Shown here: piece after piece, positions 22,258-32,000 of the stretch
Position numbering within the stretch: the first letter of the stretch is position 1
Layout of the letters: every line of letters starts with the position of its first letter
Source of the DNA: Rhodobacter capsulatus SB 1003
GTDB taxonomy: Bacteria > Pseudomonadota > Alphaproteobacteria > Rhodobacterales > Rhodobacteraceae
Length of the DNA: 32,000 nucleotides
Direction of reading: 5' to 3'
Assembly (NCBI RefSeq): GCF_000021865.1
Contig: NC_014034.1
Coordinates: forward strand, 2,820,001-2,852,000
The notes under the pieces: model-generated
Database searches by the model: none
The model's input: only the letters and a program-made list of their open reading frames with translations
What the model was told of the DNA's origin: nothing
Translations under genes and position numbers: made by a program

Positions 22258-22695
22258 ATGCTGAAGAACATCGACCCGATCCTGACGGCGGATCTGCTTT
22301 ACACGCTGCGCGCCATGGGCCACGGCGACGAGATCGTGATCGTCGACGCCAATTTTCCCGCCGAAAGCTGCGCGCAGGAGCTGATCCGGATGCCCGGCCT
22401 GAGCGCGACGCAGGTGATGGACGCGATTCTCTCGGTGATGCCGCTTGATGATTTCGTGCCGGAAGCCGCCTTTCACATGGAGGTGGTGGGCGATCCCGCG
22501 GCCGAACAGCCGATCTTCGCCGATTTCCGCGCCATTCTGGCGCGTCACGAAGGCCCGGCGGCGAAACTGGGCCGGGTCGAGCGGTTCGATTTCTACGCCC
22601 GGTCGAAACAGGCCTTTGCCATCGTCGCCACCGGCGAGACCCGGCTTTACGGCTGCCTGATCCTGAAAAAGGGCGTGATCCGTCCGCAGGCGTGA
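22258..22695 (+). CDS. fucU: RbsD/FucU-family sugar mutarotase (L-fucose mutarotase-like).
   Basis: MLKNIDPILTADLLYTLRAMGHGDEIVIVDANFPA... and ...YGCLILKKGV are characteristic of FucU/RbsD. Length is 145 aa. The ATG at 22258 is preceded by AAGGTGAG. Confidence 0.85.
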   Translation: MLKNIDPILTADLLYTLRAMGHGDEIVIVDANFPAESCAQELIRMPGLSATQVMDAILSVMPLDDFVPEAAFHMEVVGDPAAEQPIFADFRAILARHEGPAAKLGRVERFDFYARSKQAFAIVATGETRLYGCLILKKGVIRPQA

Positions 22696-22701
22696 CAAGG
22701 A

Positions 22702-22731
22702 ACCGCCCGCAAGCGGGGACTTGCGGGCGGT
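22702..22731. terminator. Bidirectional terminator hairpin between convergent fucU and the FGGY kinase gene.
   Basis: Perfect 12-bp stem ACCGCCCGCAAG / CTTGCGGGCGGT with loop CGGGGA, 7 nt after the fucU stop. There is no clear U-tract on either side. Confidence 0.55.
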
Positions 22732-22779
22732 CACACTCCCGAAGCGCCGGGGGAGGAGAAGGAGGGCGCCGGGAATGGC

Positions 22780-28841: not shown

Positions 28842-28861
28842 ATTCCAAAGGATCCACGGCC

Positions 28862-29509
28862 ATGAAATCCCCCCTAGTGACGGCCCTGTGCCTTGCGGTT
28901 GCGCTTGGCACCACGGGCTGCAAGATCGTGCCGAAAACGGCGGAAAACTCTGCCGCCCCCGCCGCCGACGCCAGTGGCGACGCGGCCCGCATCACCACGC
29001 TTCTGGCCGAGAGTTACGAGGCGAAGCTTCTGCCACTGATCGCGGTGCAGGCGCAGACGGCGCGCACCCTGCGCGGCCAGATCGCCGCCGGGCTGGACAC
29101 GGCAGGCGCGGCTTACGGCGCGCGCGGCGCGGGCAATGGCTCGCCCTGGAATTTCGCGCTCAAGGATCAGGGCAAGGTCATCAAGGCCGAGCTTGGCACG
29201 CGCGCGCGCATCCTTGATCTTGATACCGATGGCGACGGCGCGGCGGATCTGACGCTGCAGCTGGGCCCGGTGATCAAGGGCAATGCGCTGCGCGATGTGG
29301 CGCCGAAGATCTATGATTTCACCGCCTTCCGCGACCAGATGGAATTCGGCAAGCTGGGCCGGGCGCTGAACGACCGCGCCGCGGCCGGGCTGAGCGTTCC
29401 CACCGAAGACCCGACCGGCAAGACCGTCGCCTTTACCGGCGTCTTTTCGCTGCGCACGGCCTCTGACAAATGGCTGGTCACCCCCATCGCGCTGACGGTG
29501 CTGCCATGA
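28862..29509 (+). CDS. DUF2291-type lipoprotein associated with sugar ABC transporters.
   Basis: The lipobox is LGTTGC. Length is 215 aa. It sits between the SBP and ATPase genes, and its stop overlaps the ATPase start (ATGA). The family name is from memory. Confidence 0.7.
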   Translation: MKSPLVTALCLAVALGTTGCKIVPKTAENSAAPAADASGDAARITTLLAESYEAKLLPLIAVQAQTARTLRGQIAAGLDTAGAAYGARGAGNGSPWNFALKDQGKVIKAELGTRARILDLDTDGDGAADLTLQLGPVIKGNALRDVAPKIYDFTAFRDQMEFGKLGRALNDRAAAGLSVPTEDPTGKTVAFTGVFSLRTASDKWLVTPIALTVLP

Positions 29510-31044
29510 CGGAACAGCATCCGATCGGGCTGAAGATGCGCGGGGCGGTCAAGGTCTACCCCGGCACCCGCGCGCTCAAGGGCGTGGATTTCGATCTGCG
29601 CATGGGCGCGGTCAATGTGCTGGTGGGCGAAAACGGCGCCGGCAAATCGACGCTGATGAAGCTGATCGCCGGGGTCGAGGACATGACCGAAGGCACGATC
29701 ACCATGGACGGGCGCGAGATGCGCTTTCGCACCAAGGCGGACGCCGTGGCGGCGGGGATCGGCATCGTGTTTCAGGAACTGAACCTGTTTCCGAACCTGA
29801 CGGTGGCGGAAAACATCTTCATCGGCCATGAAACCACGCGCGGCGGCATCGACATCGACATCGAGGCGCATCGGCGCGCGACGCGCGTGCTGATGGAGCG
29901 GCTCGAACAGAACATCCACCCCGACACGCCCTTGGGCAATCTGCGCATCGGGCAACAGCAGATCGTGGAAATCGCCAAGGCGCTGGCGCAGAACGCCCGC
30001 ATCCTGATCCTCGACGAGCCCACCTCGGCGCTGTCGGCGGCCGAGGTCGAGGTGCTGTTCCGCGTCATCGACGAGCTGAAAGCCCAGGGCGTCGGCATCG
30101 TCTACATCAGCCACCGGCTGGAAGAGCTGATCCGCGTCGGCGATTACATCACCGTGCTGCGCGACGGCACCATCACCGGCGCGCGCAGCATGGAAGGGGT
30201 CGACATCCCCTGGATCGTGCAGGCGATGATCGGGTCAAGTTCGAAAGAATACGGCCGCTCCGAGGTCGCGCATTTCGGCCCCGAGATCTTTCGCGCCGAA
30301 GCCATCACCCTGCCCCGCGCGGGGGGCGGCTTCACTGTCGATCACGTCTCGCTGTCCATTCGCGCGGGCGAGATCGTCGGGCTTTACGGGCTGATGGGCG
30401 CGGGGCGGTCGGAATTTCTGGAATGCGTGATGGCGCAGCACCCGCATTCGGGCGGCCGCTTCTTCGTCGAGGGCAAGCCCTTGACCGAACGCGACGTGCC
30501 CGGGCGCATCGCGCGCGGCATCGCGCTGATCCCCGAAGACCGCAAGCGCGACGGGCTGATCCAGATCATGTCGATCCGGGAGAACCTGACGCTCTCGTCC
30601 CTGCCCGGCTTTGCGAAACTCTTCCACCTCGATCTGAAACGCGAGGCGCAGACCGCGCTGGATTTCATCAAGCGGCTGACGATCAAGGTGGCGAGCCCGG
30701 AAAACCCGGTCTCGTCGCTTTCGGGCGGCAACCAGCAAAAGGTCGTCATCGGCAAGGCGCTGATGACCGGGCCGAAGGTGCTGTTGATGGACGAGCCCTC
30801 GCGCGGCATCGACATCGGCGCCAAGGCCGAGGTCTTCCGCACCATGCGGCGTCTGGCCGCCGAGGGTCTGGGCATCCTCTTCGTGACCTCGGACCTCGAC
30901 GAGGTCCTGGCCCTTTCCGACCGCATCATCGTCATGGCGCAGGGCCGCGTGACCGGTGAGTTCCCCTCCGGCACCGAAGCCGCGAAGGTGATCTCGGCCA
31001 CCACCGTCCCCGTTGCGCAAAATTCGAAGGACATCGCCGCATGA
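29506..31044 (+). CDS. Sugar ABC transporter ATP-binding protein with duplicated ATPase domains (RbsA-like).
   Basis: Walker A is GENGAGKST, the signature is LRIGQQQ/LSGGNQQK, and Walker B is ILILDEPT / VLLMDEPS. The ATG at 29506 forms ATGA with the upstream stop. Confidence 0.95.
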   Translation: MTEQHPIGLKMRGAVKVYPGTRALKGVDFDLRMGAVNVLVGENGAGKSTLMKLIAGVEDMTEGTITMDGREMRFRTKADAVAAGIGIVFQELNLFPNLTVAENIFIGHETTRGGIDIDIEAHRRATRVLMERLEQNIHPDTPLGNLRIGQQQIVEIAKALAQNARILILDEPTSALSAAEVEVLFRVIDELKAQGVGIVYISHRLEELIRVGDYITVLRDGTITGARSMEGVDIPWIVQAMIGSSSKEYGRSEVAHFGPEIFRAEAITLPRAGGGFTVDHVSLSIRAGEIVGLYGLMGAGRSEFLECVMAQHPHSGGRFFVEGKPLTERDVPGRIARGIALIPEDRKRDGLIQIMSIRENLTLSSLPGFAKLFHLDLKREAQTALDFIKRLTIKVASPENPVSSLSGGNQQKVVIGKALMTGPKVLLMDEPSRGIDIGAKAEVFRTMRRLAAEGLGILFVTSDLDEVLALSDRIIVMAQGRVTGEFPSGTEAAKVISATTVPVAQNSKDIAA

Positions 31045-32000
31045 GTGCCGCACCCGCCTCCTCGCCCGCGCCGGGCTCGCCCCTGCTTCTGACGCTGCTG
31101 CAGGCGCGCACCTATGTCGCGCTGATCCTGGTCTTCGGCTTCTTCGCGATCATGGCGCCGAATTTCCTGTCGGTCGCCAACAGCGTGATCGTGGCGAAAC
31201 ATGCCGCGCTGACCGCCTTTCTGGCGATCGGCATGACCTTTGTCATCATCACCGGCGGCATCGACCTCTCGGTCGGCTCGACCGTCGGGCTGTGCTCGAT
31301 GGTCTCGGGCTGGCTGATCCTTTACGGCATCGACCTTGGCACGGTCGGCACGATGCAGTTCAACACGCTGGAAATCACCCTGATCGTGATGTGTGTCGGC
31401 GTTTTCGTGGGCTTCGTGAACGGGATATTGATCACCAAGCTGAACGTCGCCCCCTTCATCGCCACGCTGGGCACGCTTTACATCGCCCGCGGTGCGGCAC
31501 TGCTGTCGTCGGGCGGGCGGACCTTCCCGAACCTCTCGGGCAATCCGGACTACGGTTCGGCCAGCTTCCCGGCGATCGGGGCGGGCACCTTCCTTGGCCT
31601 GCCGGTGCAGATCTGGATGCTGATCGCGGTGGGGCTTGTGGCCGCCTATATCGCCAAACGCACGCCGCTTGGCCGCCATATCTATGCGGTGGGCGGCAAT
31701 GAACGCGGCGCGGCGCTCTCGGGTGTCAAGGTCAACCGGGTCAAGCTTTTCGTCTACATGTTCTCGGGCTTTTGCGCCGCCATCGTCGGGCTGATCATCG
31801 CCTCGCAACTGCAGGCGGCGCATCCGGCGACGGGGGAAACCTTTGAACTCAACGCCATCGCGGCGGCGGTTCTGGGCGGCACCTCGCTCTCGGGCGGGCG
31901 CGGCAAGATCGGCGGCACCATCGTCGGCGCCTTCGTGATCTCGATCCTGTCGGACGGGCTGGTGATGATGAGCGTGTCCTCGTTCTGGCAGACCGTGATC
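31041..32000 (+). CDS. Sugar ABC transporter permease (RbsC/AraH-like). The N-terminal ~320 aa are present; it continues past the right edge.
   Basis: My own translation from the ATG at 31041 (ATGA overlap with the ATPase stop) gives MSAAPASSPAPGSPLLLTLLQARTYVALILVFGFFAIMAPNFLS...ITGGIDLSVGS...IYAVGGNERGAALSGVKV...LGGTSLSGGRGKIGGTIVGA. It is not in the ORF track because no stop lies within the window. Confidence 0.9.
   Translation, partial: MSAAPASSPAPGSPLLLTLLQARTYVALILVFGFFAIMAPNFLSVANSVIVAKHAALTAFLAIGMTFVIITGGIDLSVGSTVGLCSMVSGWLILYGIDLGTVGTMQFNTLEITLIVMCVGVFVGFVNGILITKLNVAPFIATLGTLYIARGAALLSSGGRTFPNLSGNPDYGSASFPAIGAGTFLGLPVQIWMLIAVGLVAAYIAKRTPLGRHIYAVGGNERGAALSGVKVNRVKLFVYMFSGFCAAIVGLIIASQLQAAHPATGETFELNAIAAAVLGGTSLSGGRGKIGGTIVGAFVISILSDGLVMMSVSSFWQTVI

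What the first reader, a model, noticed from the sequence alone, without database searches (positions are those of the whole stretch)
22258..32000. Sugar catabolic locus predicting an isomerase -> FGGY kinase -> split-transketolase route with no aldolase and an unknown substrate
Seen in sequence:
- One tightly coupled operon on the minus strand encodes a short FucI/AraA-superfamily isomerase (26038-27504), ThDP-binding and pyrimidine-binding transketolase subunits (25202-26026 and 24240-25205) and an FGGY kinase (22780-24243). The last three junctions have 1-4 nt overlaps.
- Divergent from it is an RbsB-like SBP, DUF2291 lipoprotein, RbsA-like ATPase and RbsC-like permease transporter.
- A FucU/RbsD mutarotase is convergent on the far side.
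- No class II aldolase (FucA/RhaD type), dehydrogenase or transcription factor lies within the locus as far as the window extends.

Established knowledge:
- Canonical fucose, arabinose and rhamnose routes use isomerase, kinase and then aldolase or epimerase.
- A transketolase replacing the cleavage step has been shown, as I recall, for apulose-4-phosphate in D-apiose catabolism (SBP-guided pathway discovery, Carter et al. 2018). It has also been shown in the sulfoquinovose sulfo-TK route.

Inference: this cluster encodes uptake of a pyranose monosaccharide, mutarotation, aldose-ketose isomerisation and terminal phosphorylation. A C2 (glycolaldehyde) unit would then be transferred to an acceptor by a dedicated transketolase. 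The sugar cannot be deduced from the sequence.
Basis: partly seen in the sequence, partly recalled or inferred. Interest (0 to 1): 0.7.

Follow-up and report, generated by a model that had tools for sequence, protein, structure and literature searches.

The report
D-apiose transketolase pathway gene cluster
This Rhodobacter-type gene cluster imports and breaks down the plant cell-wall sugar D-apiose by the already described kinase-plus-transketolase route, and is unusual only because its first enzyme has an arabinose/fucose-isomerase fold instead of the isomerase characterised so far.

Summary
The substrate, however, can be deduced: it is almost certainly D-apiose.

- **Binding protein.** It is about 80% identical to PDB 5IBQ/4RY0. 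That sequence is exactly the Rhizobium etli p42f binding protein, which sits between a D-apionate lactonase (ApnL) and 3-oxo-isoapionate-4-phosphate decarboxylase (OiaX).
- **Kinase and split transketolase.** They are homologous and syntenic with AplK/AptA/AptB of the E. coli ST131 cluster, whose carrier strains grow on D-apiose. They are 62-77% identical to a Rhizobium cluster of identical architecture.
- **First-step enzyme.** The slot upstream of the transketolase genes is filled in three alternative ways:
  - a xylose-isomerase-like TIM barrel, which I recall (from memory) is the characterised ApsI type;
  - a pair of SDR oxidoreductases (E. coli);
  - the AraA/FucI-fold isomerase found here.

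  The last two are almost perfectly mutually exclusive in 73 enterobacterial loci.
- **Independent link.** In Listeria and Monoglobus the same four-gene module sits next to apiosidase-like genes.

The residual novelty is a probably uncharacterised, non-homologous D-apiose isomerase, plus a lineage-specific FucU. A DeoR regulator lies just beyond the window end. Interest is modest.

The parts
22258..22695 (+). RbsD/FucU-family mutarotase-like gene (145 aa), convergent on the kinase. It is an accessory, lineage-specific neighbour.
   Evidence: Pfam PF05025 at 145 bits. The NCBIfam L-fucose mutarotase score of 113.8 is below the 141 cut-off. It is present next to the cluster only in the window's own genome and R. 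maris. It is absent from Paracoccus, Cereibacter, Salipiger, Rhizobium and all enterobacterial loci.
22780..24243 (-). FGGY kinase of the GlpK-like AplK (apulose kinase) group (487 aa)
   Evidence: Pfam FGGY_N and FGGY_C. The GlpK model TIGR01311 scores 459, below the 590 cut-off; E. coli AplK shows the same sub-threshold pattern (493). Identity is 44-46% to E. coli AplK and 62-65% to the kinase of the Rhizobium SL42 cluster. In an NJ tree it falls in a clade of cluster-linked proteobacterial kinases, separate from GlpK.
24240..25205 (-). Split transketolase, pyrimidine-binding plus C-terminal subunit (AptB-like; 320-321 aa)
   Evidence: Pfam Transket_pyr and Transketolase_C. Identity is 38-45% to enterobacterial AptB and 74% to Rhizobium SL42. 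The start overlaps the TKA stop by 1-4 nt.
25202..26026 (-). Split transketolase, ThDP-binding subunit (AptA-like; 274 aa)
   Evidence: Pfam Transketolase_N. Identity is 43-44% to E. coli/Klebsiella/Rahnella AptA and 77% to Rhizobium SL42. The best PDB match is the N-terminal component of a split-chain transketolase, 6YAK.
26038..27504 (-). Short AraA/FucI-fold aldose-ketose isomerase (488 aa), the inferred D-apiose isomerase and first gene of the catabolic operon
   Evidence: - Only Pfam Fucose_iso_C matches.
- The only NCBIfam hit is sulfoquinovose isomerase SftI, at 84 bits against a 700 cut-off.
- There is no PDB sequence match.
- The AlphaFold model has pLDDT 89.8. Its best fold matches are L-arabinose isomerases at TM 0.80, with FucI at 0.71-0.74.
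- It is always found next to the split transketolase and GlpK-like kinase.
- It is mutually exclusive with the SDR pair in enterobacterial apiose clusters.
- It occupies the position held by a xylose-isomerase-like TIM barrel in Rhizobium SL42.
27505..27856 (.). Divergent promoter region with operator-like (A/T)TTTCG(A/T)T repeats at 27560-27590 and, inverted, at 27733-27775
   Evidence: The repeats and inverted pairs I2, I4 and I5 were found. Blocks rich in the same TTTCG/CGAAA half-sites flank both promoters in L092-L094, and in more degenerate form in L095-L096. That they bind the DeoR/GlpR regulator encoded after the permease is an inference.
27857..28798 (+). Periplasmic D-apiose-type solute-binding protein (CUT2/RbsB-like, 313 aa)
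   Evidence: - It matches PDB 5IBQ/4RY0 at E = 2.7e-151, roughly 80% identity over 291 residues.
- The 5IBQ sequence is contained exactly in R. etli p42f RHE_RS26605.
- That gene lies in a locus with ApnL and OiaX, both scoring above their NCBIfam cut-offs.
- Identity is 86% to the Rhizobium SL42 binding protein and 66-70% to the Klebsiella/Rahnella cluster binding proteins.
28862..29509 (+). DUF2291 lipoprotein, a conserved companion of this transporter
   Evidence: Pfam PF10054 at 179 bits. It holds the same position in the R. etli, Paracoccus TOH, Rhizobium SL42, Rahnella, Klebsiella, E. coli and Chondrinema clusters.
29506..31044 (+). ABC transporter ATPase with two ATP-binding domains (512 aa)
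   Evidence: Two Pfam ABC_tran domains. Identity is 61-82% to the homologous alphaproteobacterial clusters. There is a 4-nt ATGA overlap with DUF2291.
31041..32000 (+). ABC transporter permease, cut by the window end (full length 352 aa, ending at about 32099)
   Evidence: Pfam BPD_transp_2. The full-length gene and the following DeoR regulator are seen in the identical locus of complete genomes.

Best explanation
The locus is a D-apiose utilisation cluster of the 'transketolase' type (MetaCyc PWY-8089, D-apiose degradation I).

**Proposed mechanism.**
1. The binding protein, DUF2291 lipoprotein, ATPase and permease import D-apiose.
2. The AraA/FucI-fold isomerase converts D-apiose to the ketose apulose.
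3. The GlpK-like FGGY kinase (AplK type) phosphorylates one hydroxymethyl arm to give apulose 4-phosphate.
4. The split ThDP transketolase (AptA/AptB type) transfers C1-C2 as glycolaldehyde to glyceraldehyde 3-phosphate. The products are xylulose 5-phosphate and dihydroxyacetone phosphate, so no aldolase is needed.
5. Expression of the two divergent operons is probably controlled by the DeoR/GlpR regulator encoded just past the window, acting through TTTCGAT-type repeats.

**Shown here.**
- Gene content.
- Homology and synteny to apiose clusters.
- The binding protein's near-identity to the R. etli apiose-locus protein.
- Interchangeability of the first-step enzyme.

**Inferred.**
- The catalytic activities.
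- The stereochemistry.
- Regulation.
- Any role of FucU, possibly interconversion of apiofuranose ring forms.
For: 1. **Binding protein.**
   - It matches 5IBQ/4RY0 at E = 2.7e-151, about 80% identity.
   - That sequence equals R. etli p42f RHE_RS26605.
   - In R. etli the same SBP-DUF2291-ATPase-permease set is flanked by D-apionate lactonase ApnL (1049.7 bits, cut-off 750) and OiaX (783.9 bits, cut-off 700), plus an OiaK-like kinase. Paracoccus TOH has the same set next to a PGAP-named OiaX.
2. **E. coli cluster.**
   - E. coli ST131/ST1193 strains carrying an SBP-DUF2291-ABC-AplK-SorC-AptA-AptB cluster grow on D-apiose as sole carbon source, while cluster-negative K-12 does not (PMC13001218, read; locus).
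   - The window proteins match every one of these except DUF2291, which falls below the BLAST threshold: 44-46% kinase, 43-44% TKA, 38-45% TKB, 47% binding protein, 55% permease.
3. **Rhizobium sp. SL42.** It has the identical architecture: DeoR-permease-ATPase-DUF2291-SBP, divergent from X-TKA-TKB-FGGY. Identities to the window are 86/77/74/65% for binding protein, TKA, TKB and kinase. There X is a xylose-isomerase-like TIM barrel that matches PDB 3KTC at E = 9e-126, roughly 64% identical by eye.
4. **Mutual exclusivity.** Among 73 enterobacterial-type loci with kinase, TKA and TKB, 32 have the SDR pair only, 34 the FucI-like isomerase only, 1 both, and 6 (mostly truncated) neither. This is as expected if both perform the apiose-to-apulose conversion.
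5. **Firmicutes link.** In Listeria monocytogenes and the pectin degrader Monoglobus pectinilyticus, the FucI-like-TKA-TKB-kinase module is followed by genes with the Pfam 'Apiosidase-like catalytic domain' (243.7 and 60.3 bits).
6. **Kinase phylogeny.** Cluster-linked proteobacterial kinases form a clade apart from GlpK. They group by taxonomy, not by isomerase type.
7. **Isomerase fold.** The model is a full-length L-arabinose-isomerase-like fold at TM 0.80. This fits an aldose-ketose isomerase.
Against: - No enzyme of this locus, and to my knowledge no AraA/FucI-fold member of these clusters, has been assayed.
- Identity to the experimentally linked E. coli proteins is only 38-47%.
- I could not read Carter et al. 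2018 (not held). Three points therefore rest on my memory: that 5IBQ holds D-apiose, that 3KTC/ApsI is the Pectobacterium enzyme, and the exact transketolase reaction.
- As I recall, the same R. etli binding protein was also crystallised with D-ribose (4RY0), so binding is not perfectly specific.
- R. maris keeps the cluster but lacks the kinase within 10 kb.
- FucU has no established role with a furanose-only sugar.
Confidence: 0.8

Rival explanations
1. The cluster catabolises a different sugar. The AraA/FucI-fold isomerase would specify a substrate other than D-apiose, for example another rare pentose or tetrose whose ketose phosphate is a transketolase donor. The FucI-type clusters would only resemble the apiose clusters.
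For: - The isomerase is unrelated in fold to the TIM-barrel enzyme at the same position in Rhizobium SL42.
- A FucU-like gene is adjacent.
- The binding-protein family is RbsB-like, and I recall 4RY0 as a D-ribose complex.
- Identity to the E. coli proteins is moderate.
Against: - The binding protein is 80-86% identical to those of loci with apionate or TIM-barrel/transketolase genes.
- The kinase and transketolase subunits group with those of the TIM-barrel-type cluster at 62-77% identity.
- The FucI-like protein and the SDR pair substitute for each other on an otherwise conserved enterobacterial backbone.
- Firmicute versions sit next to apiosidase-like genes.
- FucU is not conserved with the cluster.
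Confidence: 0.1
2. The AraA/FucI-fold protein is not the apiose isomerase. It acts at another step, for example on a phosphorylated intermediate or on a sugar released together with apiose. D-apiose would then be converted to apulose by unlinked enzymes.
For: - There is no biochemical data.
- Vibrio salinus carries both the SDR pair and the FucI-like gene.
- The nearest named family is a sulfoquinovose isomerase, at very low score.
Against: - It is the only candidate isomerase in the compact clusters of Rhodobacterales, Klebsiella/Rahnella, Chondrinema, Listeria and Monoglobus.
- It is the first gene of the operon and tightly linked to the transketolase genes.
- It is near-perfectly exclusive with the SDR pair.
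Confidence: 0.06
3. The split transketolase is the organism's general pentose-phosphate transketolase and merely lies beside sugar genes.
For: Both subunits hit generic transketolase models.
Against: - All NCBIfam transketolase equivalog scores are far below their cut-offs.
- The start and stop codons of the two subunits and the kinase overlap, and the isomerase gene ends 11 nt upstream.
- The same pair travels with the kinase and transporter across four phyla.
- I could not scan the rest of the genome for a full-length tkt.
Confidence: 0.02

Closest known systems
D-apiose degradation I / transketolase pathway (ApsI, AplK, AptA/AptB; Carter et al. 2018, Nat Chem Biol 14:696; MetaCyc PWY-8089; reference organisms Pectobacterium spp.)
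   Same: - The CUT2 ABC transporter with DUF2291.
- The GlpK-like FGGY kinase.
- The two-subunit transketolase.
- No aldolase.
- The same inferred chemistry: apiose to apulose to apulose-4-P, then DHAP plus xylulose-5-P.
- A Rhizobium cluster of this type, with a 3KTC-like TIM-barrel isomerase, is 62-86% identical to the window in transporter, transketolase and kinase.
   Different: - The isomerase is an AraA/FucI-fold protein (PF02952) rather than a xylose-isomerase-like TIM barrel (PF01261).
- The regulator is DeoR-type rather than the SorC-type seen in enterobacteria.
- A FucU-like gene is appended.
- That ApsI is the TIM-barrel type rests on my memory, plus the absence of Pectobacterium among FucI-like holders.
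E. coli ST131/ST1193 and E. fergusonii D-apiose cluster (PMC13001218)
   Same: - The SBP-DUF2291-ATPase-permease, AplK and AptA/AptB homologues (38-55% identity).
- Carrier strains are shown to grow on D-apiose, while cluster-negative K-12 does not.
   Different: - E. coli has two SDR oxidoreductases and no isomerase.
- Its binding protein is a more distant subtype (47% identity).
- It has a SorC regulator.
Rhizobium etli p42f / Paracoccus TOH oxidative D-apiose-D-apionate clusters (ApnL, OiaK, OiaX RuBisCO-like protein)
   Same: A near-identical transporter, with binding protein at 80-82%, permease at 70-78% and DUF2291 present.
   Different: The downstream chemistry is wholly different: oxidation to apionate followed by decarboxylation by a RuBisCO-like protein. 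There is no transketolase, FGGY kinase or isomerase.
Sulfoquinovose isomerase SftI and the sulfo-transaldolase/sulfo-transketolase routes
   Same: - SftI is the only named family with any NCBIfam similarity to the isomerase.
- The logic is the same: a short FucI-like isomerase followed by C2/C3 transfer instead of aldol cleavage.
   Different: - The score of 84 bits is far below the 700 cut-off.
- Those routes need no kinase, because the sulfonate replaces the phosphate.
- The transporter and substrate differ.
L-arabinose isomerase AraA and L-fucose isomerase FucI
   Same: The overall fold: TM 0.80 to AraA over the full length and 0.71-0.74 to FucI. The C-terminal Fucose_iso_C domain is also shared.
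   Different: - Identity is 12-14%.
- There is no PDB hit by sequence, and hhalign to E. coli AraA is insignificant.
- No FucI N-terminal Pfam domains are detected.
- The genomic partners are a transketolase and a GlpK-like kinase, not AraB/AraD or FucK/FucA.

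Membership tests
D-apiose transketolase pathway cluster (PWY-8089) | An ABC transporter whose binding protein belongs to the D-apiose-binding group | tested here: met
   The binding protein is about 80% identical to 5IBQ/4RY0, which equals the R. etli p42f binding protein inside an ApnL/OiaK/OiaX locus. The ligand in 5IBQ is recalled from memory, not read.
D-apiose transketolase pathway cluster (PWY-8089) | An apulose kinase (AplK) homologue: an FGGY, GlpK-like kinase encoded with the transketolase | tested here: met
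   Identity is 44-46% to E. coli AplK and 62-65% to Rhizobium SL42. It falls in a clade with cluster-linked kinases apart from GlpK, and shows the same sub-threshold GlpK model score as E. coli AplK.
D-apiose transketolase pathway cluster (PWY-8089) | A two-subunit transketolase AptA/AptB encoded adjacent to the kinase | tested here: met
   Pfam N-terminal and pyrimidine/C-terminal halves are on separate overlapping genes. Identity is 43-44% and 38-45% to enterobacterial AptA and AptB, and 77% and 74% to Rhizobium SL42.
D-apiose transketolase pathway cluster (PWY-8089) | A D-apiose isomerase ApsI of the characterised type (xylose-isomerase-like TIM barrel, 3KTC-like, as I recall) | tested here: not met
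   There is no PF01261 protein in the locus. The slot is occupied by a PF02952 AraA/FucI-fold protein. The TIM-barrel type is seen at the same position in Rhizobium SL42.
D-apiose transketolase pathway cluster (PWY-8089) | Demonstrated activities (apiose to apulose, apulose 4-phosphorylation, glycolaldehyde transfer giving DHAP and Xu5P) and growth on D-apiose | not testable with these tools
   This needs enzymology and growth tests.
L-fucose isomerase (FucI) / L-arabinose isomerase (AraA) | Sequence-level membership (family HMMs, PDB relatives) and the canonical partners: kinase plus class II aldolase or epimerase | tested here: not met
   Only the C-terminal Pfam domain matches. There is no NCBIfam FucI/AraA hit, no PDB sequence hit and hhalign gives E = 0.06. 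No aldolase or epimerase is in the operon. Only the fold is shared.
Sulfoquinovose isomerase SftI (sulfo-TAL/TK) | An NCBIfam NF048012 score above the 700-bit cut-off | tested here: not met
   The score is 84.1 bits over residues 157-461 only.
Glycerol kinase GlpK | TIGR01311 equivalog cut-off of 590.35 bits, with a glycerol facilitator / GlpD context | tested here: not met
   The score is 459 bits. The gene is the last in the isomerase-transketolase operon, and it is separate from GlpK in the tree.
Housekeeping transketolase | A single-chain enzyme of about 660 aa that reaches the NCBIfam equivalog cut-offs | tested here: not met
   It is split into 274-aa and 320-aa subunits. The best scores of 282.6 and 235.4 bits fall short of the 488 cut-off. 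The rest of the genome was not examined.

The most novel reading that the evidence does not exclude
The 488-aa AraA/FucI-fold protein would found an uncharacterised family of D-apiose isomerases that is non-homologous to the characterised ApsI TIM barrel. Bacteria would then have three independent solutions for the apiose-to-apulose step (TIM-barrel isomerase, AraA/FucI-fold isomerase, SDR reductase/dehydrogenase pair), all plugged into one conserved AplK-AptAB backbone. In Rhodobacter, a FucU-family protein may act as an apiofuranose ring-form mutarotase.
Probability: 0.5. Interest if true: 0.45.

Novelty: new variant of a known kind. Interest (0 to 1): 0.35.

Why it matters
- **Annotation.** D-apiose is a signature sugar of pectic rhamnogalacturonan-II and of apiogalacturonan. 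Recognising this cluster assigns a concrete substrate to thousands of genes now labelled 'L-fucose/L-arabinose isomerase family protein', 'transketolase', 'glycerol kinase' and 'D-ribose ABC transporter'. These genes occur in Rhodobacterales, Klebsiella, Citrobacter, Pantoea, Listeria and others.
- **Ecology.** It suggests that purple non-sulfur and marine Rhodobacterales scavenge plant- or seagrass-derived apiose.
- **Enzymology.** If the isomerase assignment holds, it is a clean case of non-orthologous displacement. It also extends the substrate range of the AraA/FucI fold to a branched-chain sugar.
- **Limits.** It does not reveal a new type of pathway.

Tried and rejected
**The Carter et al. 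2018 paper.**
- I tried to read it by PubMed id and by PMC6435334. It is not held.
- Searches for apulose, 'D-apiose isomerase', apsI/aplK/aptA/aptB, 5IBQ/RHE_PF00037 and 3KTC returned only two useful papers:
  - the E. coli paper PMC13001218;
  - a preprint giving Q6D5T8 as apulose kinase.

**The Pectobacterium reference cluster.**
- I tried to reach it through homologues of the Rahnella isomerase, three cluster-member look-ups, a genome scan seeded with E. coli AplK and homologues of E. coli AplK.
- Pectobacterium never appeared. From this I conclude only that it lacks a close (55% identity or more) FucI-like homologue.

**Structure predictions.**
- A single-sequence AlphaFold model of the binding protein was useless (pLDDT 44.7), and I did not search with it.
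- hhalign of the isomerase family against E. coli AraA failed to align the catalytic domain. I therefore make no claim about catalytic residues beyond listing invariant acidic and histidine positions (E307, D309, D331, H347, E445, H446, H447).

**Other checks.**
- The promoter and terminator consensus scans found nothing above shuffled expectation.
- I rejected a fucose, arabinose or rhamnose route, a sulfoquinovose route, a true glycerol kinase and a housekeeping transketolase (see the membership tests).
- I rejected the Aldolase_II+SDR fusion beyond the window as part of the pathway, because it is absent from the cluster's neighbourhood in other genera.

Full report
**Observation**

The region holds exactly the genes described. 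Pfam gives:
- RbsD/FucU, 22258-22695 (+)
- FGGY kinase, 22780-24243 (-)
- transketolase pyrimidine/C-terminal subunit, 24240-25205 (-)
- transketolase ThDP subunit, 25202-26026 (-)
- a protein matching only the C-terminal L-fucose isomerase domain, 26038-27504 (-)
- Peripla_BP_4 binding protein, 27857-28798 (+), divergent from the operon above
- DUF2291, 28862-29509 (+)
- two-domain ABC ATPase, 29506-31044 (+)
- permease, from 31041 and running off the window (+)

Codon-position GC supports these frames.

Junctions:
- TKA/TKB overlap by 1-4 nt.
- TKB/kinase, DUF2291/ATPase and ATPase/permease overlap by 4 nt (ATGA).
- The isomerase/TKA junction is an 11-nt gap with a ribosome-binding site, a small correction to the finding.

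The rest of the window holds unrelated genes and no sugar regulator or aldolase. These include PutA with an Lrp-type regulator, SelD, Usp, an aminodeoxychorismate-type pair, a CoA-transferase, an ECF sigma factor and a GGDEF response regulator.

The isomerase is identical to a protein in three complete chromosomes of 3.8-3.9 Mb. It is 91-92% identical to Rhodobacter maris and Rhodobacter sp. JA431 proteins. The source is therefore a Rhodobacter-like alphaproteobacterium.

**The substrate can be deduced**

The binding protein matches PDB entries 5IBQ and 4RY0 at E = 2.7e-151, roughly 80% identical over the whole mature protein. The crystallised sequence is contained exactly in the product of RHE_RS26605 on Rhizobium etli CFN 42 plasmid p42f.

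In that plasmid the same four transporter genes (SBP, DUF2291, ATPase, permease) are flanked by:
- a protein scoring 1049.7 bits on the NCBIfam equivalog for D-apionate lactonase ApnL (cut-off 750);
- a RuBisCO-like protein scoring 783.9 bits on the 3-oxo-isoapionate-4-phosphate decarboxylase OiaX model (cut-off 700);
- an OiaK-like four-carbon acid sugar kinase.

A Paracoccus plasmid has the same arrangement with a binding protein 82% identical to the window's.

From memory, 5IBQ is the D-apiose complex of this protein from the solute-binding-protein screen of Carter et al. 2018. I could not read that paper. The annotation-level evidence above is independent of that recollection.

**The catabolic genes belong to the apiose transketolase route**

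A 2026 study reports that E. coli ST131 and ST1193 and E. fergusonii strains carrying a ten-gene cluster with aplK, aptA and aptB grow on D-apiose as sole carbon source. K-12, which lacks the cluster, does not grow. According to that paper, the reference Pectobacterium cluster additionally has an isomerase gene apsI, which Escherichia replaces with two oxidoreductases (PMC13001218).

I retrieved that E. coli locus. It reads: two SDRs, permease, ATPase, DUF2291, SBP, FGGY kinase, SorC regulator, two transketolase subunits.

The window proteins match all but DUF2291, which fell below the BLAST threshold. Identities are 38-55%.

Rahnella and Klebsiella carry SBP-DUF2291-ATPase-permease-SorC-TKA-TKB-'fucose isomerase'-FGGY. 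Their isomerase is 46-47% identical to the window's and their binding protein 66-70% identical.

In Rhodobacterales (Paracoccus, Cereibacter, Salipiger) the arrangement is the same as in the window, with a DeoR regulator after the permease.

**The first-step enzyme is interchangeable**

A genome scan seeded with E. coli AplK returned 80 mostly enterobacterial loci. Of the 73 that contain kinase, TKA and TKB:
- 32 carry the SDR pair only;
- 34 carry the FucI-like isomerase only;
- 1 (Vibrio salinus) carries both;
- 6, mostly truncated, carry neither.

Rhizobium sp. SL42 has exactly the window's architecture, and high identity in binding protein (86%), TKA (77%), TKB (74%) and kinase (65% by tblastn, 62% over the full alignment). 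In place of the FucI-like gene it has a 'TIM barrel protein'. That protein is a xylose-isomerase-like TIM barrel (PF01261). It matches PDB 3KTC at E = 9e-126, roughly 64% identical by eye.

I recall 3KTC as a structural-genomics entry from Pectobacterium atrosepticum SCRI1043. This is the organism whose apulose kinase is Q6D5T8 (preprint read). I believe 3KTC is the characterised ApsI.

Consistent with this, Pectobacterium never appeared among holders of the FucI-like protein.

In a neighbour-joining tree, the cluster-linked proteobacterial kinases form a clade distinct from true GlpK. They group by taxonomy rather than by isomerase type. This points to swapping of the first enzyme on a conserved AplK-AptAB backbone.

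**Independent support from Firmicutes**

More distant homologues of the isomerase (26-27% identity) in Listeria monocytogenes and the pectin specialist Monoglobus pectinilyticus also head an isomerase-TKA-TKB-GlpK-like kinase operon.

The next genes carry the Pfam 'Apiosidase-like catalytic domain', at 243.7 and 60.3 bits. In Listeria a beta-glucoside-type PTS lies between the kinase and that gene.

**The isomerase itself**

- It has no sequence relative in the PDB.
- Its only NCBIfam hit is sulfoquinovose isomerase SftI, at 84 bits against a 700-bit cut-off.
- An AlphaFold model from a 42-sequence alignment is confident (pLDDT 89.8, pTM 0.91).
- The model superposes over its full length on L-arabinose isomerases (TM 0.80, 12-14% identity). 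It fits less well on the longer L-fucose/D-arabinose isomerases (TM 0.71-0.74).
- Profile alignment to E. coli AraA was not significant, so I do not assign catalytic residues. Invariant acidic and histidine positions (E307, D309, D331, H347, E445, H446, H447) are candidates for the metal site.

**Mechanism**

Most likely (about 0.8):
1. D-apiose is imported by the ABC system.
2. It is isomerised to apulose by the AraA/FucI-fold enzyme.
3. Apulose is phosphorylated on one hydroxymethyl arm by the AplK-type kinase.
4. The AptAB-type transketolase transfers C1-C2 to glyceraldehyde 3-phosphate. The remaining three carbons are released as DHAP and xylulose 5-phosphate is formed.

The reaction itself is recalled from the EC 2.2.1.13 description, not tested here. 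This explains the absence of an aldolase.

Regulation is probably by the DeoR/GlpR protein encoded immediately after the permease, outside the window. The 352-bp divergent intergenic region holds 10-bp-spaced TTTCGAT-type repeats next to the isomerase promoter (27560-27590). It holds their inverted copies next to the binding-protein promoter (27733-27775). Comparable blocks are present in the homologous regions of R. maris, Paracoccus and Cereibacter, and in more degenerate form in Salipiger and Rhizobium SL42.

**FucU and neighbours**

The FucU-like gene is next to the cluster only in the window's genome and R. maris. It is absent elsewhere. It is therefore not a core part. A role in interconverting apiofuranose ring forms is speculative.

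The Aldolase_II+SDR fusion, SorC regulator and IF-2B/MtnA-like gene beyond the DeoR regulator are likewise Rhodobacter-specific neighbours.

**Verdict**

- The locus is an instance of a known pathway.
- The remaining novelty is the probable non-homologous D-apiose isomerase. That novelty depends on what the unread primary paper already reported.
- I rate it a new variant of a known kind, with modest interest (0.35).

Noticed in passing
L097:5296-12636 (Listeria monocytogenes) and L005:7998-14229 (Monoglobus pectinilyticus): A Firmicute version of the module: LacI regulator, FucI-like isomerase, split transketolase and GlpK-like kinase. It is followed by genes with the Pfam Apiosidase-like catalytic domain and, in Listeria, a beta-glucoside-type PTS. 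This suggests uptake of an apioside, which is then cleaved inside the cell.
   Followed up: partly
L093:15012-15491, L094:15113-15595, L095:3983-4453, L096:11867-12511: A riboflavin-pathway-like gene lies directly beside the apiose cluster in four different alphaproteobacteria. It is a DMRL-synthase/RibH-like gene in three of them and ribB in Rhizobium SL42. It is not present in the window. No explanation.
   Followed up: no
L092:10001-13823 (Rhodobacter maris): The closest named relative keeps the transporter, isomerase, both transketolase subunits and FucU. It has no FGGY kinase within 10 kb. FucU there abuts a form I RuBisCO cbbLS-cbbQ-cbbO block.
   Followed up: partly
L088:1-5312 (same genome as the window; window-equivalent about 32193-37500): Just past the window end lie a DeoR regulator, a 677-aa class II aldolase + SDR fusion, a SorC-type regulator and an IF-2B/MtnA-like isomerase. 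The last three look like a separate unit, possibly for 5-deoxy- or methylthio-pentose salvage. They are not conserved with the apiose cluster in other genera.
   Followed up: partly
L069 (Vibrio salinus): This is the only locus of 73 that carries both the SDR pair and the FucI-like isomerase next to AplK/AptAB.
   Followed up: no
L098:5311-7458 (Clostridium butyricum megaplasmid): A more distant FucI-like protein (about 24% identity) sits beside a DUF4867 gene and glycoside hydrolases, with no transketolase or kinase. This is presumably a different subfamily with a different substrate.
   Followed up: no
window 27505-27856: The divergent intergenic region carries 10-bp-spaced TTTCGAT-type direct repeats and their inverted copies about 160 bp away. 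This layout would allow looping between two operator sets.
   Followed up: partly
window 15268-19226: A trifunctional PutA (DNA-binding, proline dehydrogenase and aldehyde dehydrogenase domains; 1131 aa) lies divergent from an Lrp/AsnC regulator, the usual alphaproteobacterial putR-putA pair. A long antisense ORF (15100-18711, 1203 aa) is a high-GC artefact.
   Followed up: no
window 21337-21825 (-): A 162-aa ORF with no Pfam match lies between the tandem-Usp gene and FucU. It is called as a gene in the identical public genomes (L088:15680-16168).
   Followed up: no
window 5102-8988: A signalling patch unrelated to the sugar locus: a PleD-like response regulator with GGDEF domain, a Metal_resist (heavy-metal resistance domain) protein, an ECF sigma factor and a secreted-looking EF-hand protein.
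   Followed up: no
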